The position numbers and the translations under genes are program-made. A stretch of DNA of 63,863 nucleotides, filler included, from Octopus bimaculoides (taxonomy: Eukaryota): NCBI RefSeq assembly GCF_001194135.2. It is 7 parts of 7 records of this genome, joined end to end, with 100 filler letters (N's around TTAATTAATTAA, not from the genome) between each part and the next. Parts side by side here need not be neighbours in the genome. Positions count along the whole stretch, not along the records: positions 30,809 to 38,648 come from NC_068989.1; positions 38,749 to 49,625 come from NC_068994.1; 5 more parts are not named here. One strand, 5' to 3'. Of this stretch, positions 4,561 to 50,134 are shown one piece after another; the stretch's first letter is position 1, and every line of letters begins with the position of its first letter. The notes under the pieces are model-generated. The model was not told where the DNA came from. It saw nothing but the letters and a program-made list of their open reading frames with translations, and made no database searches.

Positions 4561-4819
4561 AATACACACATGCGCTCTACAGGTGGGTGTTTGTATGTAT
4601 ATGTGCATAAGGAAAGCAAATATCTGCAAATTGTTGAAGTGCAACATGGAAGGGATACAACAGCTGGTGCAAGGATGGAACATACTCAAGCATGCTTACA
4701 CTAAACACATAGACAAGAGCATATACAAAACTAACATTCACATGCACACACACATATACACATACACACACATACATACACACTCATACTTAACCACATA
4801 GCAATGATGCGGCTATGTA

Positions 4820-22379: not shown

Positions 22380-22977
22380 GGATCTTTGTGATTTGACGGG
22401 CAACACTTGTTTTCTTAACGAAACACTTTCAAACTTGGGACACTGGTAGAATGTGTCATATAAAACAACTTCTTCTCTTAACCTTCTTAACAAAAAATTG
22501 TACATCGCAAGTTATTTCATGTTAAAGTTGTATTTCTGTAATTTCAACCAATCACTGACGTCTATTCAGCTGAATACTGTTACTGCTGTTCGGTATCAAG
22601 TCTGTTATTCCCTGTTTAATTATATCATTATTCCCTAGTAAGGGTTTAGGGTTTTAGGGTTAGGGTTCTGGTTTTAGAGTTAGGGTTCGGGTTTTAGGGT
22701 TAGGGTTTTAGGGTTAAGGTTGGGGTTAGGGTTGGGGTTAGGGTTAGGGTTAGGGTTATGGCTATGAGCTATAGGTTTAGAGTTAAGGTTATGGCAAAAA
22801 TAATCATAACCCTAACCGTAATCCTAAAACTAACCCTAACTCTAAAACCCGAACCCTAACCCTAAAACCCTAAAGCTAAAACCAGTACAAACGCACGAAC
22901 GATGTTATAAATAAGAGTAACACGGGTAGTTGTTGTTGACAAACAACGGGACTAATTTTATTCAAGGGAAAAGATCC
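22380..22977. mobile_element. Second copy of the telomere-repeat MITE
   Basis: ggatcttt...aagatcc termini; shares acactttcaaactt..ggtagaatgtgtcatataaaac with 46290; TTAGGG-like then CCCTAA-like tracts. Confidence 0.85.
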
Positions 22978-23008
22978 CATGACACTGTTACGGCATTAAT
23001 TATTTTCA

Positions 23009-23142
23009 GGATCTTTTTTAAAACGGGGGCCACATTTTTCATTAACGAAATACTTTGAAACTTGGAACACTGGTAGAATGTGTCATATAAAACATCTTTT
23101 TCTCTTAGTCTTCTAAGAAATCCATAAATTATTCCATGTTAA
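23009..23142. mobile_element. Left end of a third MITE copy, running into a gap
   Basis: ggatctttt...actggtagaatgtgtcatataaaacatc. Confidence 0.75.
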
Positions 23143-30708: not shown

Positions 30709-30961
30709 NNNNNNNNNNNNNNNNNNNNNNNNNNNNNNNNNNNNNNNNNNNNTTAATTAATTAANNNNNNNNNNNNNNNNNNNNNNNNNNNNNNNNNNNN
30801 NNNNNNNNTTAATAGTTACTAGGGTAGCAAACATCACACAAAATTTTGGATATTATAATCGGTTAATGGGTAGAAATTCCATGTTAAAGTGATGTATTTT
30901 GAGTTGATATAAAGAATAATAATAAATGGAGCAAAACGCATATAATCAATAAGTTCCTTTA

Positions 30962-31052
30962 ATTTCTACATATGTTTCATAAATTATATGTACTGTACTC
31001 CAAAGAAGTAAGAGATGCTGGTGTATATACATAATTTCATCGTCAGGGAACC
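30962..31052 (-). ncRNA. Hammerhead ribozyme with canonical core in PLE 3' region
   Basis: Minus strand reads CTGACGA, AT-rich stem II (aaattat/ataattt), GAAAC-ATAT-GTA with palindromic acatatgt; stem I has one mismatch. Confidence 0.55.
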
Positions 31053-31854
31053 ATATTAAAAATGCAAGATTTGCGTTGAATACTAAGGTTACGTACGAGT
31101 AATAACACTATATAGCTAAGTTAAATGACCTTAAGAAACAAGATCGCTTGTTTACATGGAGCTGTTTAGGGAGAGAGGCTATGAACGTTATACTAAGAGT
31201 TTAAATTAAAGGAAGAAATAATGAACCGCAGAAAAATGTTAAAGTTAATAATAATTGTGATAAAACGTTATTGTAATTGGAAGGATAAAGGGAGAGAATC
31301 CAATGAATTTTTATATACGACTAATTATGTAAATAAGCGTTTATAAGGAAGGGAAATTATAGATGGATTGTAAATATAATTAGCCATTAATGTTGTATCA
31401 TATTATGTTACGGTAATTAACCTAAATAAATAGCAATACAAGGTACAAAACTATAAAGTGATGAAATAATAAGAATAAACATGCTTACGATACGAAAATC
31501 GATAGTATATACGTAAATATATATAAGTATACTTAAAACTCTACGAATATAACTTTTCGTGGGGTTAAACTTGTTGTACTAATTAGAGAAGGAGAGAGAG
31601 TGTAAACAATTGGCGTCGGAGTTAGATATAATTGTTATTTTAGATAATATTATAATGTTATTCTCATTGGTGTTATTATTATTATAATGAATGTAAAATA
31701 AATTTATTATTATTACTATTATTGTTATTGTCTAAAGTTAAATAAAAATAAATACAAAGTGGGGTGATAGTTCATACCACATTTAAAGTGGCTGTCAACT
31801 AGTGAGTATGTTGGTAGGTGAAAAATATAATAATAACTAAAATTAATAAAAAGG

Positions 31855-32270
31855 ATGAAATTAATGAAACGAGATGAAGGTGTGTTTCCTCCAATGCTGG
31901 CATCTGTATGCTCTGTGTGTTATCTGGTTCACTAAACTTTTCTTGGGGAACAAAATGTGGAATAGCTCCAAGTTACAGAGAGGACAAAAATCTTTACACT
32001 TATCGTAGGATATTAAGGTAGCCAGTATTAACCATTCCAAAGACAATTGTTGATTGCAGTCCTTAAGTTTCCAGATTAACTTACTAAGACCTACCGGTAC
32101 TATTATTTTTTATTCCTATCCCTAAAGGATAAGTAATGGTTAGAGATTCTCCTAGAGACCTGCGACGAAGAGCAACCAATGTAATGCGAGACCTCTTACT
32201 AGACTTTACATTCATAAACCACATTTTTGGTCCTAGCATTGACTTTCAAAAACTTGATTCCTTTACAATT
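31855..32270 (-). mobile_element. Penelope-like GIY-YIG endonuclease relic (second family)
   Basis: NVVYECKV..HYIGCSS..SRRISNHYLSF; GLSKLIWKLKD...EW.....YD...FCPLCNLELFHI....VNQ.....CQHWRK. Confidence 0.8.
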
Positions 32271-32399
32271 AAATTCCGAGATACTAATCTTATTGTTGTG
32301 ATAGTTATTGTTATATTTACTAATGTTGTACTTATTACCTATATTTGTATCTAAATTCACCTCTAGTCAGGTATACCAATTATGATGATAATAATAGTA

Positions 32400-32436
<37 letters not shown>

Positions 32437-34494
32437 TTTTTCCAGTAATACAACACACTTCTGTGGTAGCAATAGTTATTTAAATATACATGTACAAGAT
32501 GCGATGGTGTATTGTCTAGCAGCTATATATTTGAAGTTACTCTTCTAAGATAGATTTGTTTTATCAGTGAAAGCGTTTCACGGTCTTGCAACTCAACTGC
32601 AGTAGCCAACCACTCTTCGCTTTTCATCTTCTGAGTCAACCTGGGTATGATCAAGTCGTTATCCGACTTCCCGTAGCTACATCGTTATCTACACAAATTA
32701 GCGAAAGCACGGTAAAGACAAGTTATAATTTCTTCCGTAAAAATATATACACTGGAAAAGTTTCTGTATAAAAATATGCATGTGCACATACACACACCTA
32801 AGTACATATACATACACAAGCGCATACACACACATACGCACACAGAGTGTATAATTAAATTAATTTGAAAATGTATTTAGATCCCATTCTCGTACATAAA
32901 TAAATCATTACGTTACCTAAATAATGACGTTTCCATACGTCATGATTTTCAAACGTATAGCATATCGGCGTGAATTTTGACGTGTTACAAGAGATTTGGA
33001 TTAAAAAGGGAACGTATATATTCATTTAGTTACTACACGAGCTTTTTTCATTTCAATACGGATGAACTTTTCTGTTTGTTGAGGAAGAATAATTATAAAT
33101 GATTGATTTTCAAATGAATATTTTGAAACAATTTTTTCGATATGCAAAATGATGTGGCTTATATTTTTCAGCAAGTATGTTAGATTGATATTTTCTGGAA
33201 ATTTATTTAAAATATATAAGTCGGCATGCACGTTCTCGATTATTTGTTTGACTGTGGGATTTCAAAATTACTGAGGATTTGACTCAGACATACAAAATGA
33301 CCTTTTTTTATTTCGAGTTAGTCTATTGCATGTAGGAACCTAAATTAATTTTCTTTGCCTGCAGATAATGCAATGATGTCAATTAAAATTAAATGTTTCT
33401 CCCGACGTAAATTCATAAGATGTTCCATCAATATATGTATATATTGCAGCTTTTCTAGATTAATATATGTATATATTGCGGTTTTTCTAGATTGAGATTA
33501 AATTGAGAGTAATTTGCTACCAATCAATAGGTTTTTAGTGATTTGGGTTGTTCCGATTTTTCATTACTTGTTTTAACTTTTTTGTTCTCGACTTTTGCCT
33601 CGAAAACTCGATGATTATTTACGTATTTTGATGGCTGTGTGATGATATATATAAGGTAAAGAATTTGGGAGTACATGAACTGTATTTTATCCTTCGTAAT
33701 TACTTAATATCCAGTCCTGGAAAATTCTACATATATTTCATGCCAGATTAAATGCTATTTGTCTCTAGCCAAAGAGAAGGCGTTTTTGAGAATTACGAAT
33801 CAATTGAAGAATCAATTGTTAAAAAAAGAGTTACAATTCAAAAGATTTAGAATAAAAATATGTGACAAATGTTTTGACTTTATAAACATCTTTCCATGTA
33901 ATGGAAATTCAAATCAAACACAGGTGGAAGGGGTTGAGAAATTATCCATCCGTCTAAAAGTAAAAAAATATATTGTAATTGAACAGTAGAAAACGGAGCT
34001 GTAGTTGATTTGAATTTTTAATCACGACAAAAGTAAATTATTATAACGACAGGACATAACGGTTTATGAAAAGGTAAACACTTACAATAATTTTAAACAA
34101 TGTGGAAAATCGTCGATTCTATTCGACTAGTAAAACTAAAAGAAAAGCCTTTAACAGACAAGAAATGTGAATATATATTGAAGTTTAAGTGGAAAACCAA
34201 GAAACTATTGTAAGACTATTTGCTAATCGAAAATCGATACAACACTACAAACGTATCTATGATATGATCAGCTGTCAGTTACAATAGTGCTTGGTTTAAT
34301 TTGAAGTACATGGATGCGATTGGGGATATATGTTTCTCTTAAATATTTGAATAAAACAGTTTGATATGTCGACAACACAAACTGAAAACACAGAGGCAGA
34401 ATGATGCAATGAACAGTAGATGCTACTGAATTATAGAGAAAACACGATGTAACAGTACAATTTATAAGCAGAGGCAGAACAAATAATATATTGA

Positions 34495-34800
34495 CCAATA
34501 CCAAGTTACAAACCAGCACCAGGTGTCAAGCGGCGGAAGAGACAAATACGAACAGAAGCACACTCGCACGCACACACAAAGAAACAAACACGCACACACG
34601 CACACACACACACACACACATACACACACATACACACACACACACACAAATAGACGCACGCACAGACAAACACATGCATATACTTATAAATGCAAATACG
34701 ACGGGCTTCCATAATTTCCGTCTACCAAATTCAATCACAAGGAGTTATCAGATCCGCCTTGTTTCATAAATCACTACACCAAAGTGCTACACTGTGATAA
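34495..34800 (-). mobile_element. SINE family B, middle part with (CA)n
   Basis: cgggcttccataatttccgtctaccaaattc and gtgtcaagcggcgg. Confidence 0.7.
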
Positions 34801-35228
34801 TGGAGCCGAACAGCGAGTTAACAAAATGAACTTCTTTAATACTCTCAGCATGCTTGTGCATCTATATTTATAAAACAAAGGATGTGTTTAGTACGTATGC
34901 ATTTCTACAGTTTTCAATCGATTTTCACCAAACTCTATACGCGGGAGCTCTGGGCAAAATGTTATAGTCCATGACCATCCATGGAACAAGGATGGTCATG
35001 GACTATAACATTTTGCCCAGAACTCCCGCGTAATGCGAGAAACCGACTGCACTTTTTACATAGCTTTTTTTTCTGTATAAACTGCGGTTCTCAACCGATT
35101 CTCTCTCTTTTACGTCTGCAGTTTTCAAACGATTTTTTTCCTTTTCACTCTTTCTCCTTCTTTATTTCTCTCTTCTCTTTCTCATTTACACCTTCTGCAA
35201 TACTTTTTCTCGTTAAGACTGTCAGTTA

Positions 35229-35277
<49 letters not shown>

Positions 35278-36447
35278 NNNNNNNNNNNNNNNNNNNNNNN
35301 NNNNNNNNNNNNNNNNNNNNNNNNNNNNNNNNNNNNNNNNNNNNNNNNNNNNNNNNNNNNNNNNNNNNNNNNNNNNNNNNNNNNNNNNNNNNNNNNNNNN
35401 NNNNNNNNNNNNNNNNNNNNNNNNNNNNNNNNNNNNNNNTCTCTCTCTCTCTCTCTCTCTCAGCCGTAAATATCTTTGTCTTCACGATATTTGTACGTTT
35501 TCCCTACAGCATGTCTTATTTTCAATTTTTTGCACTCACACTGTTTAAATACAGTATTTACATTTCTCTCTCCCTCTATCGAAAACCGCTGTGATACAGG
35601 CAATAAGCCTTCATTACTAACCAAACAGAATCCGACCACGCCGCTGAGCGTTCATGAGTTAGAAAATTATATCCTAATGAGGCTCAACTTTGTTCACTTA
35701 ACTTATTTTCTTATACAGATTTATACGTTGAAATGAGGTTTGTAATTTCTGTCTACAAATTGGTTTCCTTGTGTGAAATAATATTGTTTCACTTTGTGTG
35801 TGTTTGCGCGTTCGGTACGTACGAGTTAGTAAAGAACACGTTATACCACGACAACGATGACGTCATATATATGAGTGTGTATGTGTCTCTGACTGTATGT
35901 GTTCGGATGTATGTCACTTTAGCTGTGTGTGTGCTTCCGCATCTATCACGTTATTAAACACATGCACATCTACACATAGATATACACATGTGACGACTGA
36001 CATGCGTGAATGTATGTCTATATATGTCTCTTTTAAAATATGTATGGGACTGTATGTGTGATTGTATGTATGAGTATCGTCACATCTTGTATATGAATGT
36101 GTATGAGTCTGTGAATGTGTGTGTGTGTTTGCGCGCACGTTACGTACGTTATTAAACATACACATACATATACATATGTGACGAGAACGGTTGGAGGGGA
36201 AACTCTTGACAAAAGCAATTACGTGGAAGCTCCAACATATATAAAAATACACATCTACCGTTCAATTAACAGTTCATAATTATCGTGGCAGTTGCAAGAT
36301 TGCAAGGTATTTAAATTTGCTTATATTTAGTTAATTTACACTGCATGCACAAATATAGACATACTACATACACGGCATACAAAAATATAGGATTAATGTT
36401 TATTTTTTTCTATGTTCATAAATTTTTGCTTAAAATATTGAAAAAAT

Positions 36448-36900
36448 ATGCCACCAAAGAATAAGCGTAATCTATGTAGAGACACCTATAAAGTAAGTAG
36501 AAGTGCAGAAAACCGAATGGACATAAACACTTCTCTACATTAGCAACGGCGTGCTGCAGCACGTCACATGGAGTCGGAATACAGAAGGGACATAACACTT
36601 TCCAAAGATCATCAAACGCATGATGCAGCACGTGAAATACAGTCTCAAAAAAGAATGGAGATGAGACTCTCTCAAGATCAACAAAAGCAAAAGTACACTG
36701 CAACACTTAATGTTGAATCATTAAAACAACGTTTAGCACGCCAGATTACAAAGAGAGCCAATGGAATAGCTCTCAGAAACACCACTTACAAATTCATTCT
36801 TCACAACACCTGGAACTACTTTCAGGTATGAGGCATCCCGTTATTATAAAAATGATGAATGATTGATTGTGTTCAAATTGGTGTGCTAAACTCAAATTGT
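36448..36900 (+). mobile_element. Possible Helitron RepHel N-terminal relic
   Basis: MPPKNKRNL..., R/E-rich QRRAAARH...MRLSQDQQK, then FRYE...Y..D, resembling Helitron N-termini as I recall them; internal stops. Confidence 0.4.
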
Positions 36901-37013
36901 AGTTTGTGCAAGTCTTTAAAATTAACTCCACAAACTTTTTCTCGTCAATGCTGCACTTTAGCGTATCACCCAACATAACTACAATATATGCATATATAAC
37001 AATATATATATAA

Positions 37014-37049
<36 letters not shown>

Positions 37050-38266
37050 NNNNNNNNNNNNNNNNNNNNNNNNNNNNNNNNNNNNNNNNNNNNNNNNNNN
37101 NNNNNNNNNNNNNNNNNNNNNNNNNNNNNNNNNNNNNNNNNNNNNNNNNNNNNNNNNNNNNNNNNNNNNNNNNNNNNNNNNNNNNNNNNNNNNNNNNNNN
37201 NNNNNNNNNNNNNNNNNNNNNNNNNNNNNNNNNNNNNNNNNNNNNNNNNNNNNNNNNNNNNNNNNNNNNNNNNNNNNNNNNNNNNNNNNNNNNNNNNNNN
37301 NNNNNNNNNNNNNNNNNNNNNNNNNNNNNNNNNNNNNNNNNNNNNNNNNNNNNNNNNNNNNNNNNNNNNNNNNNNNNNNNNNNNNNNNNNNNNNNNNNNN
37401 NNNNNNNNNNNNNNNNNNNNNNNNNNNNNNNNNNNNNNNNNNNNNNNNNNNNNNNNNNNNNNNNNNNNNNNNNNNNNNNNNNNNNNNNNNNNNNNNNNNN
37501 NNNNNNNNNNNNNNNNNNNNNNNNNNNNNNNNNNNNNNNNNNNNNNNNNNNNNNNNNNNNNNNNNNNNNNNNNNNNNNNNNNNNNNNNNNNNNNNNNNNN
37601 NNNNNNNNNNNNNNNNNNNNNNNNNNNNNNNNNNNNNNNNNNNNNNNNNNNNNNNNNNNNNNNNNNNNNNNNNNNNNNNNNNNNNNNNNNNNNNNNNNNN
37701 NNNNNNNNNNNNNNNNNNNNNNNNNNNNNNNNNNNNNNNNNNNNNNNNNNNNNNNNNNNNNNNNNNNNNNNNNNNNNNNNNNNNNNNNNNNNNNNNNNNN
37801 NNNNNNNNNNNNNNNNNNNNNNNNNNNNNNNNNNNNNNNNNNNNNNNNNNNNNNNNNNNNNNNNNNNNNNNNNNNNNNNNNNNNNNNNNNNNNNNNNNNN
37901 NNNNNNNNNNNNNNNNNNNNNNNNNNNNNNNNNNNNNATATATATATATATATATATATATTGAGATGGTTTCTTTTTTGACATATAAGTACACGCACTT
38001 TATAATCGTTCTGCAGTCGTTTATAAGCAGACAGAATGGATTAAGTGGAGCAAAATGTGCTGCTGAAGTAGTCACAGATGTTCGACGAAAGATTTTCGGA
38101 CAATAAATATACGATAAAATATGTACAGCAATAAACGAGTGTTTATTTGGCCAACAAAAAACAAAACAAATGACTATCACGAAATAAAACAATATCTGTT
38201 TCAACAAACATTTTCACCTCAGCAACCTTGCTACATAGACGTATATGTATGAACATATATACACAC

Positions 38267-38311
<45 letters not shown>

Positions 38312-38358
38312 CAAACACACACACACACACACACACCCACATATATATATACATATAA

Positions 38359-38397
<39 letters not shown>

Positions 38398-38748
38398 AGA
38401 TACAGAAATAAATTTATTTCTCAAACGCGTGATAATGCTATAAATAGCGTGATCAGGATAAATGATCCATATAATGCAGAAAAATACGTTGCCGGCCAGC
38501 CATGAGTCTGGCCAGCAACGTATTTAAAGTATTATCACGCGTTTAAGAAATAAATTTATTTGTGTATCTTACGACACATCTTAACGCTTCTAAAAAAGAA
38601 CAAACTGTGTTTACTTTCATCGTAAAAGTTGAATATATACATTTATATNNNNNNNNNNNNNNNNNNNNNNNNNNNNNNNNNNNNNNNNNNNNTTAATTAA
38701 TTAANNNNNNNNNNNNNNNNNNNNNNNNNNNNNNNNNNNNNNNNNNNN

Positions 38749-39202
38749 GAAGCACGATGGCTTTGCTAGGATCTTTAGCACTTTGCAGTGTCGTTCCATT
38801 CTGGCATTGGCGTAGCTTTCAATGCCAAAAGTTGGCACAATTCCTTCCAGGATCTTCCAGATGTATATTATTGCATACCTCTCCTGCCTTCGCTCCAGGG
38901 AGTAGAGTCTTAGCTGTTTCAACCTTTCCCAGTAGCTGAGCAGTTGCAAAGAGACAATCTTCTTTGTGAATCTTCTCTGGATTGCTTCAAGGTCAGCTGT
39001 TAATTTCACACTGGTGGGTGACCATAGCTGTGAGCAGTAATCTAGGCGGCTGAGGACGAATGTCCTCCAGATGACCATCATTGTTTCCTTGTCTCTGGTT
39101 CTTAATGTTCTCAGGATCCAGCCAGCCAGTCATTTGCACTTTGTTGCCATCTTGGTAATGTGCACTTGAAAAGAGATATCATCACTCATGTCGATACCCA
39201 GG
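38749..39202 (-). mobile_element. Inverted copy of the same CR1-group LINE
   Basis: Reverse complement of 39509-39962 with about 37 substitutions in 454 bp (hand count) and no indels. Confidence 0.9.
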
Positions 39203-40265
39203 CACTGTCTTGGGACCACTGCTTTTTATAGTGGCCCTCTCAGATATGCCCTCAAGTGCCCGGATAGTCACCCTTACAAGCTACGCAGACGACACGAAAA
39301 TCTTGCAGAAAATACAGAACCGCAGTGAAGTTGCACATCTGCAGCAGGAGTTGGACTCAATTAACAGATGGGCTGAGGATAATAATATGCAGTTCAATGC
39401 TGAAAAATTCCAAGCCCTGCGCTACGAACGTCCAAAACTGAATATGAAACTTAAAGAGTACACTGGTCCGCAGGGAATTTCAATCCCAGAGCCTAAATTA
39501 GTGGGGGACCTGGGTATCGACATGAGTGATGGTAACTCTTTCCAAGTGCACATTACCAGAATGGCGACAAAGTGCAGACGAGTGGCTGGATGGAGCCTGA
39601 GAACATTCAGAACCAGAGATAAGGAAACCATGATGGTCTTCTGGAAGACATTCGTCCTCAGCCGCCTGGATTACTGCTCACGGCTATGGTCACCCAACAG
39701 TGTAAAATTAACAGCTGACCTTGAAGCAATCCAGAGAAGTTTCACAAAGAAGATTGTCTCTTTGCAACTGCTCAGCTACTGGGAAAGGCTGAAACAGCTA
39801 AGACTCTGCTCCCTGGAGAGAAGGCGGGAGAGGTATGCAGTAATATACATCTGGAAGATCCTGGAAGGAATTGTACCAAATTTTGGCATTGAAAGCTACA
39901 CCAATGCCAGAACGGGACGACACTGCATAATGCCAAAGATCCCAGCAATGCCATCGCGCTTCAGGATCAGTTATTGAAACAGTTTGAGTTTCAGAGGCCC
40001 ACAGCTTTTTAATATTCTCCTAAAGAGCCCGAGGAACTTGTACAAAGTAGATGTAGGAGGTTTTAAATCAAAGCTGGATCTCTTCCTCTCGAGAGTCCCA
40101 GATGAACCTATCACACGGAAAGAGGGGCAAATGAGGGTAGCTACATCAAACTCCATTCTTCACTAAGTGCCACATATTGGAGGAGGCTCTCAGTAATAAC
40201 AGTGTAGCAGAACAGCGGTGCATTAGCATGGCGGCAGCTCTTTTCTAAAACTAAAGAAAAAAAAT
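39203..40265 (+). mobile_element. 5'-truncated CR1-group LINE (RT C-terminal half, 3' UTR, A-rich tail)
   Basis: GTVLGPLLF, SYADDTK, DLGI, LRTFRTRD, VLSRLDYCS, ERLKQLRL.SLERRRER, FRGPQLFN..., one in-frame stop near 39977. Confidence 0.9.
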
Positions 40266-40329
40266 TAACACATATATATATATACAAATATAAATATATA
40301 TACAAATGTAAATATCAATATATATATAA

Positions 40330-40790
40330 TACACGCTCACGTAGTCGCACCAGCTAATCCCGTCTCCACTCATCACACACGAACTTTTGGATTCTACCTT
40401 CTTTCCTTCTGGATCTACTCTTTCTGGACCGTCTGATTCTGAACTTTACACCCTCCGGCTGCACCTCTCCTACCCACGGATTGCACTGGACCCATCTTCT
40501 GATTGGAAATCGCCTCAATATACCACGACGTCTAAAAACTTTTGAACTTTTGAACTTTTGCACTTTTGTAAACCTCCTTTATTACCTTTATCATCTTTAT
40601 TTTTTCCTGACTGAACACTATTCAATTTTTTTTCTCCGTGTTTTTCTCCTTGTCTCCGTATTCTTTCTGTTGAAGAGCGTAGCTCGAAACGTTAAAGACT
40701 TTCTGTATTCCCGAGCGTCATACTAATACATCCTTTTGTTGTTTACACCACCTGTCCTCGTCTGTTGTTGTTTTTTTCGTACATTCTCCC
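40330..40790 (+). mobile_element. Penelope pseudo-LTR / terminal region with hammerhead-like motif
   Basis: Shares sequence with 19295-19485 (reverse complement), lies directly upstream of the PLE coding fragment and contains the HHR fold. Confidence 0.65.
40662..40698 (+). ncRNA. Minimal type-I hammerhead ribozyme with variant core
   Basis: Stem I tcttt/aaaga, core CTGTTGA(A), stem II gagc-gta-gctc, GAAA, palindromic stem III ACGT, GUU cleavage triplet. Confidence 0.55.
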
Positions 40791-40957
40791 NNNNNNNNNN
40801 NNNNNNNNNNNNNNNNNNNNNNNNNNNNNNNNNNNNNNNNNNNNNNNNNNNNNNNNNNNNNNNNNNNNNNNNNNNNNNNNNNNNNNNNNNNNNNNNNNNN
40901 NNNNNNNNNNNNNNNNNNNNNNNNNNNNNNNNNNNATATATATATATATATATATAC

Positions 40958-41820
40958 ACACAATTCACTATGGAACACAGCAGTAAACAACTCCCTTTTC
41001 TTGACATCCTGATTAAAATTTTCAATAACCACATAGAAACAGACATCTTCTATAAACCTACAGATTCTAAACAATACCTATTATTTAACTCATGCCACCC
41101 CAAACACATAAAAATTAATATACCTTATAATCTATCGAAAAGAATCTGTACCATAGTTTCGGACCCCGATACTCGTGAACGAAGACTCCTTGAACTCAGA
41201 TCAATATTAATCAAAAGACATTACCCAATATCTTTAATAAATAATGGAATCAACAGAGCTAAGGAAATAGACATACAGACATTAAGGGAAGTCAACCGAA
41301 ATACTAAACCAGACTTAAAGATACTCCCATACATCTCCACACATAACCCTAGGAACAACGAAGCCTTTAACGTTATCATCCAAAATCTTCCCATCCTCAC
41401 AAGAGATAAAACAATGAACAAAATTTTAGGCTCACACAAAATTATCAAAAGTAAAATGCAACCTAAATCACTGAAAAAATATTAACCAGCACAAGACTGT
41501 ATCCATTAACAACAGAACCAAAAGTAAAAAAATGTGGTCGACCTAATTGTGGAACTTGCCCCCACCTTTTGGAGGGTTCTGAGTTCCACTTTAAACAAGG
41601 GGAAATGTTTAAGATTAAATCAAATTTCACCCGTGCCTCGGAAAAGCTAATCTATGCCATTACATGCTTCGGGTGCAGTAATGACTATATTGGCCAAACA
41701 GGAATATCACTCCGTAGAAGAACTACTCTCCACAAAGAACAAATTCGCCACCCACATTACAGACAGATAAAGGTCAGTGGACACACAGAAAGGTGTGCGA
41801 GGAATCTTAATCCTAATTTC
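40958..41820 (+). mobile_element. Penelope-like element: RT C-terminus, Cys linker and GIY-YIG endonuclease (Neptune-like)
   Basis: LPFLDILI...IFYKPTDSKQYLLFNSCHPKH...IPYNLSKRI; CGRPNCGTCP; LIYAITCFGC..YIGQTG...RR..LH; frameshift near 41485. Confidence 0.9.
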
Positions 41821-42616
41821 NNNNNNNNNNNNNNNNNNNNNNNNNNNNNNNNNNNNNNNNNNNNNNNNNNNNNNNNNNNNNNNNNNNNNNNNNNNNNNNN
41901 NNNNNNNNNNNNNNNNNNNNTATATGTATGTATATATGTATGTATGTATGTATGTATGCATATATGTATGCATGTATATATATATGTGTATATATATGCA
42001 TATAGATATGTATATATATGTATACATATATATGTGTTTATATATATTTGAAGTTAAGCAACAAAAATTCAATAGGTTATAGCAGTACGTACGCTTCGTA
42101 CAAGCTCCATTTATTCATGTAGTGAGAACACTACAGAAAATACAATGAAAATGTACTCCTCAGCTGCATAATGGAATTTCATTTTAGAAAGTCATTTTGA
42201 AGATGTTAGCAAAAAAAACAGAGTTTAAACAGCAGCATAGTCGAGATATGTTTTCTTCTCTTACTCTGGTTTTTTGCAAACATCTTCAAAATGACTTTCT
42301 AAAATGAAAAAACATTATGCAGCTGAGGAGTACATTTTCATTGTATTTTCTGTAATGTTCTCACTACATGAATAAATGGAGCTTGTACGAAACGTACGTA
42401 CTGCTATAACCTATTGAATTCTTGTTGCTTAACTTCAAATTTATTCACCAAATCTCTTGATTTTGTTTTTGGTTTTTATCCTACCAATTTCTGGTACCAC
42501 GAACATTTTAAGTACCACATTTAATCTTTTGATTAAATCTATATTATTATTCTGTGTTTATATATATGTACATATATATATGTATATTTTTATATGTGTA
42601 CATGCTTACATATATA

Positions 42617-42651
<35 letters not shown>

Positions 42652-44274
42652 TCAAAAGAAGACAAAAAGCAATAACAAAAAACAATAACAAAAAACAACA
42701 ACGTGAGGACGTGATACGGATAGTGTTATTAGACGCTCGGGAAAGGAAAGAGAGAATAACACTATCCGTATCACGTCCTCACGTTGTTGTTTTTTGTTAT
42801 TGTTTTTTGTCTTTTTTTTTTAACTTATATATAAAGTATATAGTAGCTAAAAATATATAAGGACTTAGGGGTATATAAATTTAATGCTAAAAATTAAGCA
42901 TTATATATTATATATAGTCACGCTTAGAAGTATATTAAGTTCAATAGTGTTTAATGGAGATAGAATCAAATACTAAACCAATATGGTAATGAGTAAGTAA
43001 ATAAATAAGTAAAAATATACTTAGTATACGTACATATTTGTAATATAGGAGAAACTAACAACCCTAAAATTTATACTGAATTGGTCAAATGGAAAATGGA
43101 AACAAACAAGAATCCGTTGGTCAAAATTTTCGGATAACAGCGTTCAATGAAGTAAGCCTAATGGACGGAAATAGAACAATATAGTATGGAGGGAAGTGAC
43201 GAGAGAGTGGTGAAGAGGAAAATAATTTAGGTGAAAATTATAAAATAAGGAGGGAGTACATCAAATAAAGGTAATAAAATAATTGCTTTTTTTATGAGGT
43301 TGGCTTCGATACCGGAAATAAGAATTTAGTTATTTCCATATATTGAACAATACATATAAACCAAAACCACTTCTCCTTGTTAATAAGTTTATTAACCTCT
43401 TTATTTATTTAAATACATTAACAACAAACTATAGTTCAGTAGTAAATATGGCATTTTATCCCATAAACTATAACTTAATTATATTATTTTTCATTGACGA
43501 ACTTCCACTTTATATTATATAGATTTCCTTCTACGTTACTCTTCTCTTCCCCTCTTCCTTGTTATTTTTTTTCTCTCCAAACTAAATTCTTATTGCCGGT
43601 ATTGAAGCCAACCTCATAAAAAGCAATTATTAGTAAATTCTGACATATTGACACATTTTATCCCTTTATTCGAAAATTTTGATTTACTCCCTCCTTATTT
43701 TATAATTTTCACCTGAATTATTTTCCTCTTCACCACTCTCTCGTCACTTCCCTCCATATTAGATTGTTCTATTTCCGTTACCTAGCCTTACTTCATAGAA
43801 CGCTGTTATTTGAAAATTTTGACTAATGGATTTTTCTTTACATTTTCATTTTTCATTCGATCAATTCAATATACATTTTAGAGGTGTTAGTTTTTCATAT
43901 ATTACAAATATTACGTCAGTATTTACATCGTGATTTTAGGCCAATTCACTGACCTGTTACTCTGGAGTTTCCACGGTTTCTATCACTTTTTCAAATAGGT
44001 CAAACTGACCTAATAGCTGAAGCTCATCTTTCAGATGACGGAAGTAGTGCAGAATATAATGCAAATACATTGTGCGGAAAATAATGATGCGGATAAAGAT
44101 AGAACTCATGTGAATTGCTGAACAAATATACAAATACGATTGATTTGTCTTAAAGCATGCACACACAGGCACTGAAACATTCACTATCACACACACACAG
44201 GATTTCGAACATTCATGCTCAACCCCAACATAGACTTATTGGCGTGTACACATGTAAAAGCAGATACAGACATG

Positions 44275-44338
<64 letters not shown>

Positions 44339-45140
44339 ACCTTGTTTACAACCCATAAAAATACCTGCATAAGAGAAGTACACATACATATAGGCACAAA
44401 GGAAGAAGGTAATGTACGGTCTTGTACGGTTTTGTCGCTCTGCGCGCATCTCGGACAGTCCTGCTTTGGTAATCATCTTTGTCAGTAGAGTTTATCTCGA
44501 ACTCGATTCCAAGAACTTGTCTTCATCGCTCTTACCCACTCCTGTTTCTATATCCATTGCTAAATTATATGTAGCTAAATTGGTACTTCCATCAACAACA
44601 CTGCCCGAGTTGTAGTGGACGATAAGCATGTGACGAGATTACAGATGCAAGGTTTCCAATGTTCGTCTGTTAGTCTTCTTTCGACCCAGGATTGCACATC
44701 CGTCGAAGAGATAAGCTGCAGAAAAGCGTGTCTGTCAAATGGAGACTACACCTACAGTCCAGGAAAATGTGTAGGTGGTACTATTCGTGTCCGCGCGTCA
44801 GGGGCCAGAACATGCCATTTTCGTCGAAAATACACATTCACATACCCACAGAGACACACATACTCACGTACATGCATTTAATATGTCTGTGTGCATGTGA
44901 GAGTGTATTTGTGTGTGTCTGTATATTTCGACAAAACCGGAAAAACGTACATCCTAATACAGTCCCTGCGTTACATTTGTTCCACTGAGTTGTATAATCC
45001 CTTGTCAGCTTTCATAAATGCAATGAAGCATTGATTGACCTATCACTAACGAATATATTGAATAATTCCAAAATAAACTAATAAATACATAACTTAATTT
45101 TGCTAAACTAAGATTTAAAAGCTATGTAAAGTGTATTTAC

Positions 45141-45226
45141 CTGTAGAGATCAGAAGCTGATACGTTTAATTCTAGCGGCACGATATCGCCAAACACTTTT
45201 TTATCTGGAAATGCCGCATCCATTAA
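45141..45226 (-). CDS. PROM1-like: Prominin-like gene, next exon
   Basis: aatttctctttccag acceptor and TAC AG|gtaaat donor; 86 bp, phase 0 to 2, in phase with the preceding exon. Encodes LMDAAFPDKKVFGDIVPLELNVSASDLY(R/S), ending like the prominin LTFEQVY(S)| exon end as I recall it. Confidence 0.7.
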
Positions 45227-45504
45227 CTGGAAAGAGAAATTAAAGTACTTTAACATTATAATGAAAGTTTTGTGAAAATGATCGAAATATAATCTATTAG
45301 TGAAAGGAAGAAAATGATTAGTAAATAAATAAATCATAGATCACATCTCGTTGCATTCAATATGTTAACTATAATTGAACTATTATGTCGTCATACGAAA
45401 AGTATCAAGAGTAATTTGTTCACGGAATATTTCTATTCTTTTAAGCCGAAAATGTACATTATTACTCAGTGAGTTTCTTATGCTTATAAGGAAGTTGCTT
45501 CACT

Positions 45505-45837
45505 TCATTCTAGGAATATTCTTTTCTACTCGAGGCACAAGGCCCGAAATTTTGGGTAAGGGGGCCCGTCGATTAGATCGACCCAGTGTGCAACTGGTAC
45601 TTAATTTATCGACCCCGAAAAGATGAAAGGCAAAGTCGACCTCGGCGAAATTTGAACTCAGAACACAAAGACAGACGAAATATCGCTATGCCTTTTGCCC
45701 GCCGTGCTAACGTCTCTGCCAACTCACCGCTTTCTCATTCTAGGCATATTCTTTTCTACTCGAGGCACAAGGCCCGAAATTTTGGGTAAGGGGGCCCGTC
45801 GATTAGATCGACCCAGTGTGCAACTGGTACTTAATTT
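45505..45837 (-). mobile_element. SINE family A, one full copy plus a tandem partial duplicate
   Basis: 230-bp unit from 45505; the repeat restarts at 45735 and runs 103 bp with one mismatch into the gap. Confidence 0.9.
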
Positions 45838-46289
45838 NNNNNNNNNNNNNNNNNNNNNNNNNNNNNNNNNNNNNNNNNNNNNNNNNNNNNNNNNNNNNNN
45901 NNNNNNNNNNNNNNNNNNNNNNNNNNNNNNNNNNNNNNNNNNNNNNNNNNNNNNNNNNNNNNNNNNNNNNNNNNNNNNNNNNNNNNNNNNNNNNNNNNNN
46001 NNNNNNNNNNNNNNNNNNNNNNNNNNNNNNNNNNNNNNNNNNNNNNNNNNNNNNNNNNNNNNNNNNNNNNNNNNNNNNNNNNNNNNNNNNNNNNNNNNNN
46101 NNNNNNNNNNNNNNNNNNNNNNNNNNNNNNNNNNNNNNNNNNNNNNNNNNNNNNNNNNNNNNNNNNNNNNNNNNNNNNNNNNNNNNNNNNNNNNNNNNNN
46201 NNNNNNNNNNNNNNNNNNNNNNNNNNNNNNNNNNNNNNCCCATATTCGCCGAAAGATGCAAAAAAATTTCAGACAACAGCAAATATTTC

Positions 46290-47348
46290 GAATCTTTTCC
46301 CTTTGAACGGCACATCGAGAAATTAATTTTTTGTAACTAAACACTTTCAAACTTTGGACTTTGGTAGAATGTGTCATATAAAACATTTTTTAGTGATGTT
46401 GAGAAAAGTTTATATTTTCAAAGTTATTTCGTGTTAAAGTTGTCGTATTTCGGTAATTTCAACCAATCAATGACGTGTATTCAGCTGAATAAAATTACTG
46501 CTTTTGTTTGTCAACAACAACTATCGGCGGTGTATATTTCGTTTGTCACTGTTATTTATGACATCGTTCGTGTGTTTGTACTGGTTTTAGCTTTAAGGTT
46601 TTAGGGTCAGAGTTAGGGTTAGAGTTTTAGAGTTAGGGTTAGGGTTTTAAGGTTAGGGATAGGGTTTTAAAGTTAGGGTTAGGGTTCGAGTTTTAGAGTT
46701 AAGGTTAGGGTTAGAATTTTAGGGTTAGGTTAGGTTTAAGTTTTTAGGGTTAGGGTTAGGGTTTTAAAGTTAGGGTTAGAGTTAGGGTTTTAAAGTTAGG
46801 GTTAGGGTTTTAGGATTAGGGTTAGGGTTTAGAGTTAGGGTTAAGGGTTAGGGTTAGGGTTGGAGTTTTAGGGTTAAGGTTAGGGTTGGAATTTTAGGGT
46901 TAGATTTACAGAAAAATATGAAAAAGGAAGAAAATGGAGGCGGTGGGGGAGGAAGCAAAAATGTCTTTCCGAAAATAGTAGCTGAAAAACAGGAAAAAAA
47001 AACTAAAAGCAGTAGAAATGCACGAACGATTGTGGTGGTGCCATGAAGTAAACATGCTTCAGATACACTCGTTTATTCATACAAACGTAACTGAGATGAA
47101 ATATGTCATAAATAACAGTAACAAACGAAATATACACCGCCGGAAATTGTTATTGACAAACAACAGCAGTAATTTTATCCGAAATACGACAACTTTAACA
47201 CGAAATAACTTTGAAAATACAAACTTTTCTCAACAGCACTAAGAGTAAAAGATGTTTTATATGACACATTTTACCAGTATCCGAAGTTTGAAAGTGTTTA
47301 GTTACAAAAAATTAATTTCTCAATGTGCTGTTCAAAAGGTAAAGATCC
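46290..47348. mobile_element. Fold-back MITE with long TIRs and internal degenerate (TTAGGG)n
   Basis: Left end gaatcttttccctttgaacgg pairs with right end ctgttcaaaaggtaaagatcc; about 250-280 bp of subterminal inverted similarity; telomere-like tract at about 46590-46905. Confidence 0.85.
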
Positions 47349-48384
47349 AATATTGCTTTTTGTTCCTCACTATATATTTCATGCTACCTACATTAAACAA
47401 TTTAGCACTAACTCAACTTAGGTAATCTTGTTGGTATCAATTTATCTTTAACTATTGATCGAAATGCAAACGATCAAAAGGTGATTGAATCAACATGATA
47501 TTTATTTATAAGCAAATATTTAAAATACAGAAAATAAGTTAAAAAGAAAGGTTATTTTGTCACATTAAAAAAAAAAACATTCCAAAAGTGAATAAGACAT
47601 TGATAGATATATAAATAATAGTGGATTTTACATTAAAAAAAGAACATGTTAATATTTGCTATAATTCGCTTAGTTATTTATTTGAACAGTTGTTACTTCG
47701 ATCAACTGTATTTCGGTGAACATTCTCTGCGGTCTCACATTATTTGATCAATAGTAAGTAGAAGGGTTTGTGAGAGACTTCGATGTGTTCAATTGCCATG
47801 TAAAGGAGAAAATTCAGCACTTTTTATCCTTGAGAGTGTGGAAGATATAGAAGGTGGTTGTTATACGCTGCTATATTCGAACTAGCATCCGCATCTTTGT
47901 TTTATAGTCAAGTGCGTATTGTATTCGGTTCGCTTGTAAGTTATGAGTTTAATCACTAAATCCGTGATACAATTTATACTCTAGTAAAAGACTAATTAAT
48001 AGAATATCCCTAATATGACAAACGAATGAAAAAAATCTACCACGATGGGTTTAATAAAGAGTTTCGAATTTCCAAAAGGCATCTGAAAAGGGTCAGAGGA
48101 CACAATATAGCAGCAAAGACACTAAGGATAAATTTAGCTTGTGATACTTATTAAGCTTATTATTTAAACTTTTTTTACTGAACCAATATATTTATAATGC
48201 ATTTCATTTAGCACTATATAAATTTCAAGAATTAAGGAGTCAAATAATAAATGAGCAGAAAGTAAAATACTATGAAAGCGATGAGAAAACATGTGTAAAA
48301 ATATAGCAAATTATATTTAACGAAAAGAATTGAAACTGTGTGGCGGTAAAGATACGTATAGTAATATTTCTCTAAAAAACCTAC

Positions 48385-48514
48385 CTTTTCTAAATTTGTG
48401 TCAATATTTCGTATCAAACCGCAGCCGTATCGTTCGAGTACGGAACCCGGTATGTAGGTGATAGTTGTCAATACCATAAATAACCAACCAAAGAAAAACA
48501 TAAAACCAACTGAC
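48385..48514 (-). CDS. PROM1-like: Prominin-like gene, internal exon (TM4 plus start of second extracellular loop)
   Basis: tttttttttag acceptor and AAG|gtaggt donor; 130 bp, phase 2 to 0. Encodes SVGFMFFFGWLFMVLTTITYIPGSVLERYGCGLIRNIDTNLEK, which resembles the prominin-1 segment [33 protein letters not shown] as I recall it (TM helix, G..(V/L)E(K/R)..C). Confidence 0.8.
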
Positions 48515-49189
48515 CTAAAAAAAAAATTACATCGTATTACGTAACTGAAACATCTGTATCATAAAATAATAAAGATAGTTTTAGCTGCATATATGAAGCA
48601 GAATTACTAATAACAAGAAATTTACGAAGGTGGTGAAAGCGGGCTAACACTATTGAGACAGTGTATACAAAATGAATACTATGGCAAATAGGTTAAAGTC
48701 TATGCTTTGCTGTGGAGGTCTTAAAATATTAAAATACACGTAGATTTTTCTCCCCGCACTAGCCGAAATGATTAATATATTTGTCATTGAATGTATTTTG
48801 TTTAGATACATACCTTCTTATTAAACTATTTTGAAATAGTAAGTGCTATTTATTTATTTTATTCATTTATATAAATGATTCCTTCATAATTATTTTACAA
48901 TTTGCCGTATATATGTTTTTACTTATTTACGTATAAAAATATAATTTCTAAATTTTGTGGTTTCTATAATTGTGTTCTTATACAAATTTTATATAGCCTA
49001 TCATCACATTTTGCTCTTTCTTCGTAATTCCTGTATACGGTAGTGGTTATGTTACCTATCCACTGTTAGCTAGTATCAGATTTACTACAAGTAATACTCG
49101 TTTAAACAAATTACTCTAAAGTTGATATATTTTTCATTAAAACGTACGTTACGATATAATGCTTCATTAGTAAGGTCAAGCTATCTAGC

Positions 49190-49420
49190 ATACATTCTTT
49201 GAATTTTTAAATTACAAACTCATCAAAAATAAACTCCTCAACATACGTTCTTCTATGAAAATCATACCCACAACCACAGAGAAATAACCCCCATGACATA
49301 AAGTGGAAAATACTCTTCTTAGCAAAAGCCTATTTCGGCAACAAAACACCTATTCAATTATCACCACCGAATCTCTCGAAATCTAAGCTTCCTATTCATA
49401 ATATTTCATGCAAACATGTT
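49190..49420 (+). mobile_element. Highly decayed Penelope GIY-YIG fragment
   Basis: NNPHDIKWKILFLAKAYFGNKT and LLNIRS motifs. Confidence 0.35.
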
Positions 49421-50134
49421 TATACAAAACTTATATATTATTTAGACACATCAATTTCATGAGCATTCTAACTAAAAAAAACAAAACTTCAATCAATATT
49501 AGTGGACTGAAAATTTACGAGTGTACATGAATTGAATAAGGATAGCATGTGTATACATGTATACTTTTACGTATAGATAAACGTGTGTATATACATATAT
49601 ATCTACATTCACACACACACACACANNNNNNNNNNNNNNNNNNNNNNNNNNNNNNNNNNNNNNNNNNNNTTAATTAATTAANNNNNNNNNNNNNNNNNNN
49701 NNNNNNNNNNNNNNNNNNNNNNNNNCGTAACACGTCACTAGAAATAACTAATTAGGAAGTATCGAAAAATAGTTATAGCTATATAATTTAAAATTAATTG
49801 AAGCTTAATTACGTCAAAGATGATCGAACTGCAGACAAATTTGTGAGACGACAGTAAATTCTTTAAATGTGAAATTAGTATCAAGTTTTAACTACTAGCG
49901 GTACTAAAACTTAATATGCCGCTAATATGTTTTCTATAAATTATACTTAACAGTTCTAAGAAATTATCATAGTCTTTCTCTATCATCATCTGCACACATA
50001 CACACATGCGCGCGCAGGCTCACACACATACATATAGATAGATACATACATAGATAGGTAAGTATATATATAAACATATGCACACACTGTCACACATTCA
50101 CCTCCGTATATATATATAATCTTTCACCTGCTTA

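What the first reader, a model, noticed from the sequence alone, without database searches (positions are those of the whole stretch)
34938..43917. Cluster of local fold-back inverted duplications, probably inside a prominin intron
Seen: six separate inverted repeats in about 9 kb (34938-35032, 38406-38561, 38749-39962, 42046-42440, 42675-42810, 43031-43917), plus isolated ones at 4789, 24076 and 52804. Arm identity ranges from about 85% to 100%, which suggests events of different ages, and several sit at TE ends. Known: coleoid cephalopods edit dsRNA heavily via ADAR, and long hairpins can yield endo-siRNAs. Inference: a recurrent template-switch or snap-back process (possibly RT-driven, e.g. 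Penelope) keeps generating intronic hairpins here, forming a potential dsRNA, editing or splicing-regulatory hub.
Basis: partly seen in the sequence, partly recalled or inferred. Interest (0 to 1): 0.72.

Follow-up and report, generated by a model that had tools for sequence, protein, structure and literature searches.

The report
Penelope insertion hairpins in octopus prominin
The six mirror repeats are real but lie on two different chromosomes and all sit inside common repeats, so they are most likely ordinary head-to-head insertion scars of Penelope-type and LINE jumping genes (plus one likely DNA copying slip), and no editing or splicing role is shown.

Summary
All six inverted repeats exist, but the '9-kb cluster' crosses a pack joint: two lie on contig C9, four on C14 inside an octopus prominin gene (minus strand). 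Each lies in a dispersed repeat. 42046 and 43028 belong to families whose longer copies carry a Penelope-like (PLE) reading frame. 42664 is a PLE-type end with a hammerhead-like motif. 38396 is a tRNA-headed repeat with the same layout. 38749 is a 5'-truncated LINE joined head-to-head to an inverted copy. 34938 is a local template switch. Inverted 5'-truncated copies are a published PLE hallmark, and this scan found them before on other DNA. Background is about 0.8 inverted repeats per 10 kb (96 in 1.19 Mb). The C9 pair is at background. The C14 tile holds 5, against at most 4 in 140 control tiles. One residue is unexplained: the rest of the prominin gene also has more long, young hairpins than controls (6 against 0.45 expected; 3-4 after discounting, p 0.005-0.03, thresholds set after seeing the data). 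Editing was not testable with the RNA obtained, and no fixed hyper-editing was found.

The parts
34938..35032 (.). 46-bp inverted repeat inside one copy of a dispersed repeat (window 34860 to at least 35268); an inverted copy of the downstream 46-50 bases replaces about 20 bases that the other copies have. On C9, not in prominin.
   Evidence: the repeat continues on both sides; 0 of 5 fetched copies (L130-L132, L161, L162) have the inverted arm
38396..38637 (.). Head-to-head pair of 5'-truncated copies of a tRNA-headed repeat (unit about 306 bp) between (TA)n tracts; the inverted copy lacks the last ~66 bases. On C9.
   Evidence: tandem and inverted copies in L153-L157; Rfam tRNA 33.2 bits, cut-off 29, in L154
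38649..38748 (.). Pack joint; not genomic
38749..40264 (.). 5'-truncated LINE (39201-40264, + strand, RT fragment, A-rich 3' end) preceded without spacer by an inverted copy of its own 39509-39962 part; 2-base overlap at the junction; left arm cut by an assembly gap
   Evidence: (RVT_1 E=1.4e-8)
40608..41820 (+). Fragment of a PLE: repeat end with a hammerhead-like motif (read by eye), gap, RT C-terminal part, CxxxxCxxC linker, GIY-YIG domain; no inverted arm
   Evidence: (GIY-YIG E=4e-4, under the curated cut-off)
42046..42551 (.). PLE 3' end (42227-42551, + strand) with a type I hammerhead core at 42323-42400, preceded by an inverted 5'-truncated copy that stops about 110 bases short of the 3' end; microsatellite on both sides
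   Evidence: longer copies L209 and L214 carry PLE endonuclease-region codons upstream (E about 1e-11 to the L009 element, 1e-18 to P0001)
42650..42826 (.). Two head-to-head stubs of a PLE-type 3' end, (TA)n at the left end and TTATATATA at the right; longer copies carry a hammerhead-like motif just upstream
   Evidence: (1885 candidates; 1 other of 40 scored has the same pair)
42827..43917 (.). Two head-to-head pieces of an old PLE family (73-86% to most other copies): 42827-43331 and 43330-43916, 2-base overlap; the 248-base loop belongs to the arm that stops internally
   Evidence: 0 of 3 fetched copies scanned (L126-L128) have the inversion; a longer copy encodes a PLE RT C-terminal motif; DNA run X3 matches
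45141..45226 (-). Prominin exon (residues 518-546 of P0018); the four C14 repeats lie in the intron that follows it
48385..48514 (-). Prominin exon (residues 476-519 of P0018)
   Evidence: (84% to Octopus vulgaris prominin-1-A)

Best explanation
The repeats lie inside dispersed mobile elements on two chromosomes, and five of the six are likely insertion scars in which a 5'-truncated retroelement was joined head-to-head to an inverted, also truncated copy of itself, while the sixth (34938) is likely a short template switch during DNA copying. Inferred mechanism for the PLE-type pairs: the element's nuclease cuts both strands of an AT-rich target, both 3' ends prime reverse transcription (at either of two start sites, which gives one long and one short outer end), both cDNAs stop early, and their ends are joined over 0-2 shared bases. 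The LINE pair fits either that or a cDNA that folded back and primed on itself. Four such scars lie close together on C14, likely because several elements inserted into or beside each other. Transcribed with the intron, the arms would pair and would be passive ADAR substrates like other repeat hairpins; no selected function is shown.
For: Shown: two chromosomes. All six queries return dispersed families (candidates 478, 1137, 5717, 1431, 1885 and 21). Family of 42046: hammerhead core, upstream PLE codons in 2 of 12 longer copies, inverted arms that end at the same base in all 6 other inverted copies inspected while their inner ends differ. Family of 43028: a longer copy matches the PLE at L017 (E=7e-10) and P0012 (E=9e-7). 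A full PLE in the same gene (L009) has the RWK, DKT and CxCX5C motifs that PMC8557442 (section 11) gives for the Hydra clade, and an inverted end. Junction overlaps of 2 bases at 39201-39202 and 43330-43331. In 38396 and 43028 the loop is on the shorter or internally ending arm, which a simple cDNA snap-back cannot make. Published: inverted 5'-truncated copy, one-sided tail and (TA)n targets are PLE hallmarks (PMC8557442 and PMC3846280, passages); a purified PLE cuts and extends both strands and starts at two sites (PMC11167929, parts 1-2). 34938: the family continues on both sides with about 20 bases replaced, as in the four-point model (PMC5453318, passages).
Against: The tails here (about 110 and 66 bases) are longer than the 30-40 bases published. 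No target-site duplication could be read, because the flanks are microsatellite. No reading frame was linked to the families of 38396 and 42664. The LINE arms are no closer to each other (91.9%) than to dispersed copies (up to 93%), so two separate insertions are not excluded by identity. 43028 also fits a replication template switch of type 3-1-2-4. The local pile-up is not explained by more (TA)n targets: 2.5 tracts per 10 kb in the interval against 5.5 in controls. The excess of long, young hairpins in the rest of the gene is not explained.
Confidence: 0.8

Rival explanations
1. The prominin gene is a real hot spot for young fold-back insertions (for example because it is open in the germ line, or because PLEs re-insert near themselves), without any function of the hairpins.
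For: Tile L010 has 4 repeats of score >=200 and identity >=90%, against at most 1 in each of 140 control tiles; the 19 neighbouring tiles have 6 against 0.45 expected (p=0.0002); all 10 lie between the first and last prominin exons found; the 100-kb flanks have 0 and 1, the C4 prominin paralogue 0. Three of the six neighbours are in PLE sequence.
Against: At score >=50 the neighbours are at background (12 against 10.9) and at >=100 nearly so (6 against 4.0, p=0.24). The thresholds were chosen after the data were seen. Two of the six surround an assembly gap with (TA)n and may be misassembly, and two are in one element: with 4 or 3 events p=0.005 or 0.027 (one gap-centred control repeat was left in the control count). 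Repeats cluster, so a binomial test overstates significance.
Confidence: 0.3
2. The hairpins form a selected dsRNA hub that controls editing, splicing or small-RNA output of prominin.
For: The four C14 repeats are in the transcribed intron and are predicted to fold at -884, -282, -92 and -388 kcal/mol on the minus strand. Octopus has over a million hyper-edited sites (PMC5625713, table passage). One contig of X15 (RNA is a guess, depth 2.9) shows T>C at 43197, which is A>G on the prominin strand, where DNA run X3 has T.
Against: Two of the six are on another chromosome. Such hairpins occur about once per 12 kb. The nearest arm is 1,224 bases from the splice donor. The arms have drifted apart by 5-8% with a mixed spectrum. 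The hammerhead copy on the prominin strand has a change in its core and would be paired up. The single T>C is one low-depth contig and may be an allele or an error.
Confidence: 0.05
3. All are replication template switches or cDNA snap-backs that happened in repeats by chance, not products of two-ended priming.
For: 34938 and the internal inversion of the L009 PLE (C14:24211233-24212022) have family sequence on both sides, as template switches do. Snap-back 5' junctions are seen for R2 (PMC11371274, passages) and fit the LINE and 42046 geometry. PMC3846280 reads PLE palindromes as self-priming.
Against: Outer ends of 42046-type pairs recur at the same base in separate loci, as fixed start sites predict and random switches do not. 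Snap-back cannot give the 38396 and 43028 geometry.
Confidence: 0.25
4. The arms are assembly artefacts.
For: The assembly is gap-rich (55,789 N in 200 kb); PMC8557442 warns of assembly problems with such structures; two neighbouring repeats outside the window surround gaps and are 98-100% identical.
Against: Five of the six have arms that differ by 4-8%; DNA run X3 reproduces 43028-43916 in 0-difference pieces; the same layouts recur at other loci.
Confidence: 0.03

Closest known systems
Complex insertions of endonuclease-bearing Penelope-like elements: inverted 5'-truncated copy next to the 5' end, one-sided tail, (TA)n targets (PMC8557442; PMC3846280; PMC11167929)
   Same: Head-to-head truncated pairs, one arm shorter at the outer end, microsatellite flanks, hammerhead near the 3' end, PLE reading frame in longer copies; Hydra-clade motifs in the related element L009
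   Different: Tails of about 110 and 66 bases, not 30-40; one family has a tRNA head and no reading frame seen; no target-site duplication readable
5' inversions of LINEs: L1 twin priming (as described in PMC4245944) and R2 cDNA snap-back (PMC11371274)
   Same: Inverted piece fused to a 5'-truncated element over a 2-base overlap
   Different: Here at least 454 bases are present twice, which fits snap-back better than twin priming as I recall it; PMC4245944 saw 5' inversions almost only with human L1, none with the L2-clade ZfL2-1; the clade of this LINE was not tested
Short-range template switches, four-point model (PMC5453318)
   Same: 34938: a short inverted copy of nearby sequence replaces a few bases and makes a new hairpin; family sequence continues on both sides
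   Different: The ancestral state is taken from paralogous copies, not from an orthologue
ADAR hyper-editing of repeat-derived dsRNA in animals (PMC5625713)
   Same: Long intronic inverted repeats made of mobile-element sequence
   Different: Editing at these sites is not shown

Membership tests
EN+ Penelope-like element insertion | Sequence continuous with a PLE RT/endonuclease reading frame | tested here: met
   Met for the families of 42046 (L209 and L214) and 43028
EN+ Penelope-like element insertion | Reading frame for the families of 42664 and 38396 | tested here: inconclusive
   None seen in 4 and 8 fetched copies with short or gapped flanks
EN+ Penelope-like element insertion | Inverted 5'-truncated copy directly at the 5' end | tested here: met
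   42046, 42664, 43028, 38396
EN+ Penelope-like element insertion | Tail at one end only, 30-40 bases | tested here: inconclusive
   One-sided extension present in 42046 (~110 bases) and 38396 (~66 bases), longer than published; absent in 42664
EN+ Penelope-like element insertion | Hammerhead motif in the terminal repeat | tested here: met
   Motif scan finds a core with stem II at 42323; variant cores seen by eye in copies of the 42664 family. Rfam gave no hammerhead hit; cleavage untested; none seen in the 38396 family
EN+ Penelope-like element insertion | AT-rich or (TA)n target | tested here: met
   Microsatellite at the outer ends of 38396, 42046, 42664
EN+ Penelope-like element insertion | Target-site duplication | tested here: inconclusive
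   Flanks are microsatellite
Hydra clade of PLEs | RWK, DKT and CxCX5C motifs, C-terminal endonuclease, hammerhead | tested here: met
   Read in L009 against PMC8557442 section 11; the families of 42046 and 43028 are tied to it by similarity only, no tree was built
Non-LTR LINE with 5' inversion | RT domain, 5' truncation, A-rich 3' end, fused inverted piece | tested here: met
Non-LTR LINE with 5' inversion | Far end of the inverted piece and target-site duplication | not testable with these tools
   2,728-base gap
MITE or foldback DNA transposon | Both arms move together with fixed inner structure | tested here: not met
   Most copies are single-armed and inner junctions differ between loci
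Four-point template switch | Inverted copy replaces local bases; ancestral sequence resumes | tested here: met
   34938 against 3 printed copies
Edited dsRNA or endo-siRNA locus | A-to-G clusters in RNA against matched DNA; 21-22-nt reads | tested here: inconclusive
   Only 43028-43916 was laid; one low-depth T>C; no small-RNA data
Hairpin with ADAR edits fixed in DNA (lead from e1-8672752) | A>G excess on one strand in both arms | tested here: not met
   1 of 92 repeats skewed at p<0.05; its left arm has 9 A>G in 122 A, within the family range of 1.5-7.6%, and the right arm has 1 matching change

The most novel reading that the evidence does not exclude
Two-ended Penelope insertions are a main factory of long intronic hairpins in octopus (about 80,000 inverted repeats per Gb, over a quarter ending at a microsatellite), they pile up in particular genes such as this prominin, and they supply much of the dsRNA behind cephalopod non-coding hyper-editing.
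Probability: 0.12. Interest if true: 0.55.

Novelty: already known. Interest (0 to 1): 0.2.

Why it matters
As found, it is an ordinary outcome of retroelement insertion and a warning that pack joints can create clusters. Two points keep some value. The loop lies on either arm, which favours two primed cDNAs over self-priming and bears on the open question of how PLEs build inverted ends. The sampled density (0.8 per 10 kb) and the excess of young hairpins in this gene give a ready test of whether PLE scars feed octopus hyper-editing.

Tried and rejected
Unmasked self-BLAST was swamped by microsatellites. The complexity filter penalised long arms, so counts were redone without it, tile by tile, keeping the best repeat among overlapping ones. 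No RNA holder was listed for 42820-45500, and raw RNA run X21 laid 0 reads from about 6 in 100 of the run: no test. X14 (organism B) covers 43823-44140 with 10 differences but not the junction: age not resolved. Rfam found no hammerhead or other family above its cut-off in 30809-49625. ARAGORN found no tRNA in 4 loci of the 38396 family, although Rfam did in L154. Pfam named none of 9 decayed translated pieces from repeat copies, and a protein search with the L128 piece found nothing at E<=0.001. Fixed hyper-editing rejected. More (TA)n targets in the gene rejected. The prominin exon for residues ~547-573 was not found in the sequenced part of the 14.9-kb interval (3,038 N), so the far end of the intron is unknown. 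P0018 found no prominin exon in 100 kb around the C9 pair. Paper searches listed no survey of inverted repeats or PLE hairpins in octopus; the library lacks most subscription papers.
Full report
Observation. All six inverted repeats are in the sequence, with arms of 32-454 bases and 92-100% identity over aligned columns. The window is a pack of seven stretches, and a joint at 38649-38748 splits the finding. The part with 34938 and 38396 maps to G000:C9 near 26.81 Mb. The part from 38749 is G000:C14:24217931-24228807. A window exon matches Octopus vulgaris prominin-1-A at 84%, and that protein maps 14 exon pieces on the minus strand of C14:24316468-24154609. The four C14 repeats lie after the exon at 45141-45226. 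One exon (residues ~547-573) was not found, so the far end of the intron is open. No prominin exon was found around the C9 pair.

Background. I scanned 160 tiles of 10 kb with one rule (simple repeats masked, spacer up to 1 kb). The 140 control tiles (1,185,982 non-N bases; 90 evenly placed, 50 from C14, C4 and C9) hold 96 repeats of score >=50, or 0.81 per 10 kb; mirror repeats gave 0. Two in the C9 stretch is unremarkable (P=0.11). Tile L010 holds 5, against tile counts of 0, 1, 2, 3, 4 in 71, 47, 18, 3 and 1 controls, but it was picked for this. In the 19 neighbouring tiles, counts are at background for score >=50 (12 against 10.9) and above it for score >=200 with identity >=90% (6 against 0.45, p=0.0002). 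Those thresholds were set after seeing the data. Two of the six surround an assembly gap and two are in one element; 4 or 3 events give p=0.005 or 0.027. In controls, 27 of 96 repeats have a microsatellite at an outer end, against 5% for random placements; only 1 of 96 overlapped PLE coding sequence detectable with my few queries, so most background repeats are unclassified.

Anatomy. 42046-42551: the sense part has a type I hammerhead core at 42323. The family has 1431 candidates. In 6 of 6 other inverted copies inspected, the inverted arm ends at the same base, about 110 short of the 3' end, and runs into AT-rich microsatellite, while the inner junctions differ. Of 12 copies found by a 5'-part query, 2 extend into PLE endonuclease-region codons and 3 show an inverted piece. 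42650-42826: two stubs of another repeat end; 2 of 4 fetched copies are long enough to show a hammerhead-like variant upstream; no reading frame was linked. 42827-43917: two pieces of an old family joined over 2 shared bases; 0 of 3 copies scanned have the inversion; a longer copy encodes a piece like the PLE at L017 (E=7e-10), which matches the L009 PLE (E=2e-32). L009 has the Hydra-clade motifs of PMC8557442. 38749-40264: a 5'-truncated LINE (RVT_1) fused over 2 bases to an inverted copy of its own interior; 0 of 5 copies have it; the arm ends in a gap. The LINE clade was not tested. 38396-38637: a tRNA-headed repeat found in tandem and inverted arrays between (TA)n tracts. 34938: about 20 family bases replaced by an inverted copy of the downstream 46-50 bases; a resemblance of this family to non-autonomous Helitrons is recalled, not tested.

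Reads. One stretch, 42827-44140, was laid. DNA run X3 reproduces it in 0-difference pieces over both outer ends, and over the junction with 102 and 29 letters; loose ends at 43330-43332 show the un-inverted family state in other copies. X15 (RNA is a guess) gave 2 contigs and one T>C at 43197 at depth 2.9, which is inconclusive.

Mechanism. Shown: positions, families, head-to-head layout, junction overlaps, recurring outer ends. Inferred: cutting and priming on both target strands at two start sites, early stops, and end joining. PMC11167929 reports both-strand cutting and extension and two start sites in vitro. In 42046 and the LINE the loop is on the arm that reaches the 3' end, which also fits snap-back (PMC11371274). 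In 38396 and 43028 it is on the other arm, which snap-back cannot give; 43028 could also be a 3-1-2-4 template switch (PMC5453318). Why the pairs pile up here is unexplained; (TA)n tracts are not denser.

Function. The arms are predicted to fold strongly in the pre-mRNA, so passive editing is likely wherever the intron is abundant; this is inference from PMC5625713. Nothing points to selection: mixed drift between arms, 1,224 bases to the splice donor, a core change in the hammerhead copy on the prominin strand. Fixed hyper-editing was tested and rejected.

Papers seen: PMC8557442 (passages, section 11); PMC11167929 (parts 1-2 of 4); PMC3846280, PMC11371274, PMC5453318, PMC4245944, PMC5625713 (passages); 10.64898/2026.07.22.740005 (listing and one word search, nothing used). 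No supplements were read; files S1 and S2 of PMC8557442 may already name these octopus families.

Verdict. Real repeats, a cluster partly made by packing, a known kind of insertion scar, function not shown. Interest 0.2.

Noticed in passing
window 46282-47354 (also 22410-23142): Inverted repeat with 283-base arms around a degenerate TTAGGG array, in the previous prominin intron; the arm family recurs in L046, L057, L122, L168, L182, L192, L193. Class unknown.
   Followed up: partly
L009:2320-5600 (G000:C14:24210320-24213600): Near-full, broken Hydra-type PLE with hammerhead ends, an inverted 5' end, and a 183-base inverted duplication that replaces part of its RT codons.
   Followed up: partly
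L017:6265-7106 (G000:C14:24294265-24295106): PLE RT region with a 5' inversion that overlaps the sense part by 248 bases, loop on the inverted arm.
   Followed up: partly
G000:C14:24168480-24169522 and 24297941-24298533: 98-100% identical arms on both sides of a (TA)n tract and an assembly gap; possible misassembly.
   Followed up: no
L154:2771-3562 (G000:C3 near 129.29 Mb): Tandem and inverted array of a tRNA-headed repeat with PLE-type ends.
   Followed up: partly
G000:C4:53013532-53057944: A second prominin gene on the minus strand; it has no long, young hairpins in 97 kb.
   Followed up: partly
window 35560-36830: By eye, this continues the repeat family of 34860-35268 (L131, L162) and has a ~69-base repeat in an open frame at 36544-36831.
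   Followed up: no
window 45505-45607 and 45735-45837: 99% identical direct duplication of 103 bases next to a gap, within a very common repeat.
   Followed up: no
window 61686: Another hammerhead-like motif on the + strand.
   Followed up: no
L027:1355-1450: 5S rRNA-like match above the Rfam cut-off (42.4 bits).
   Followed up: no
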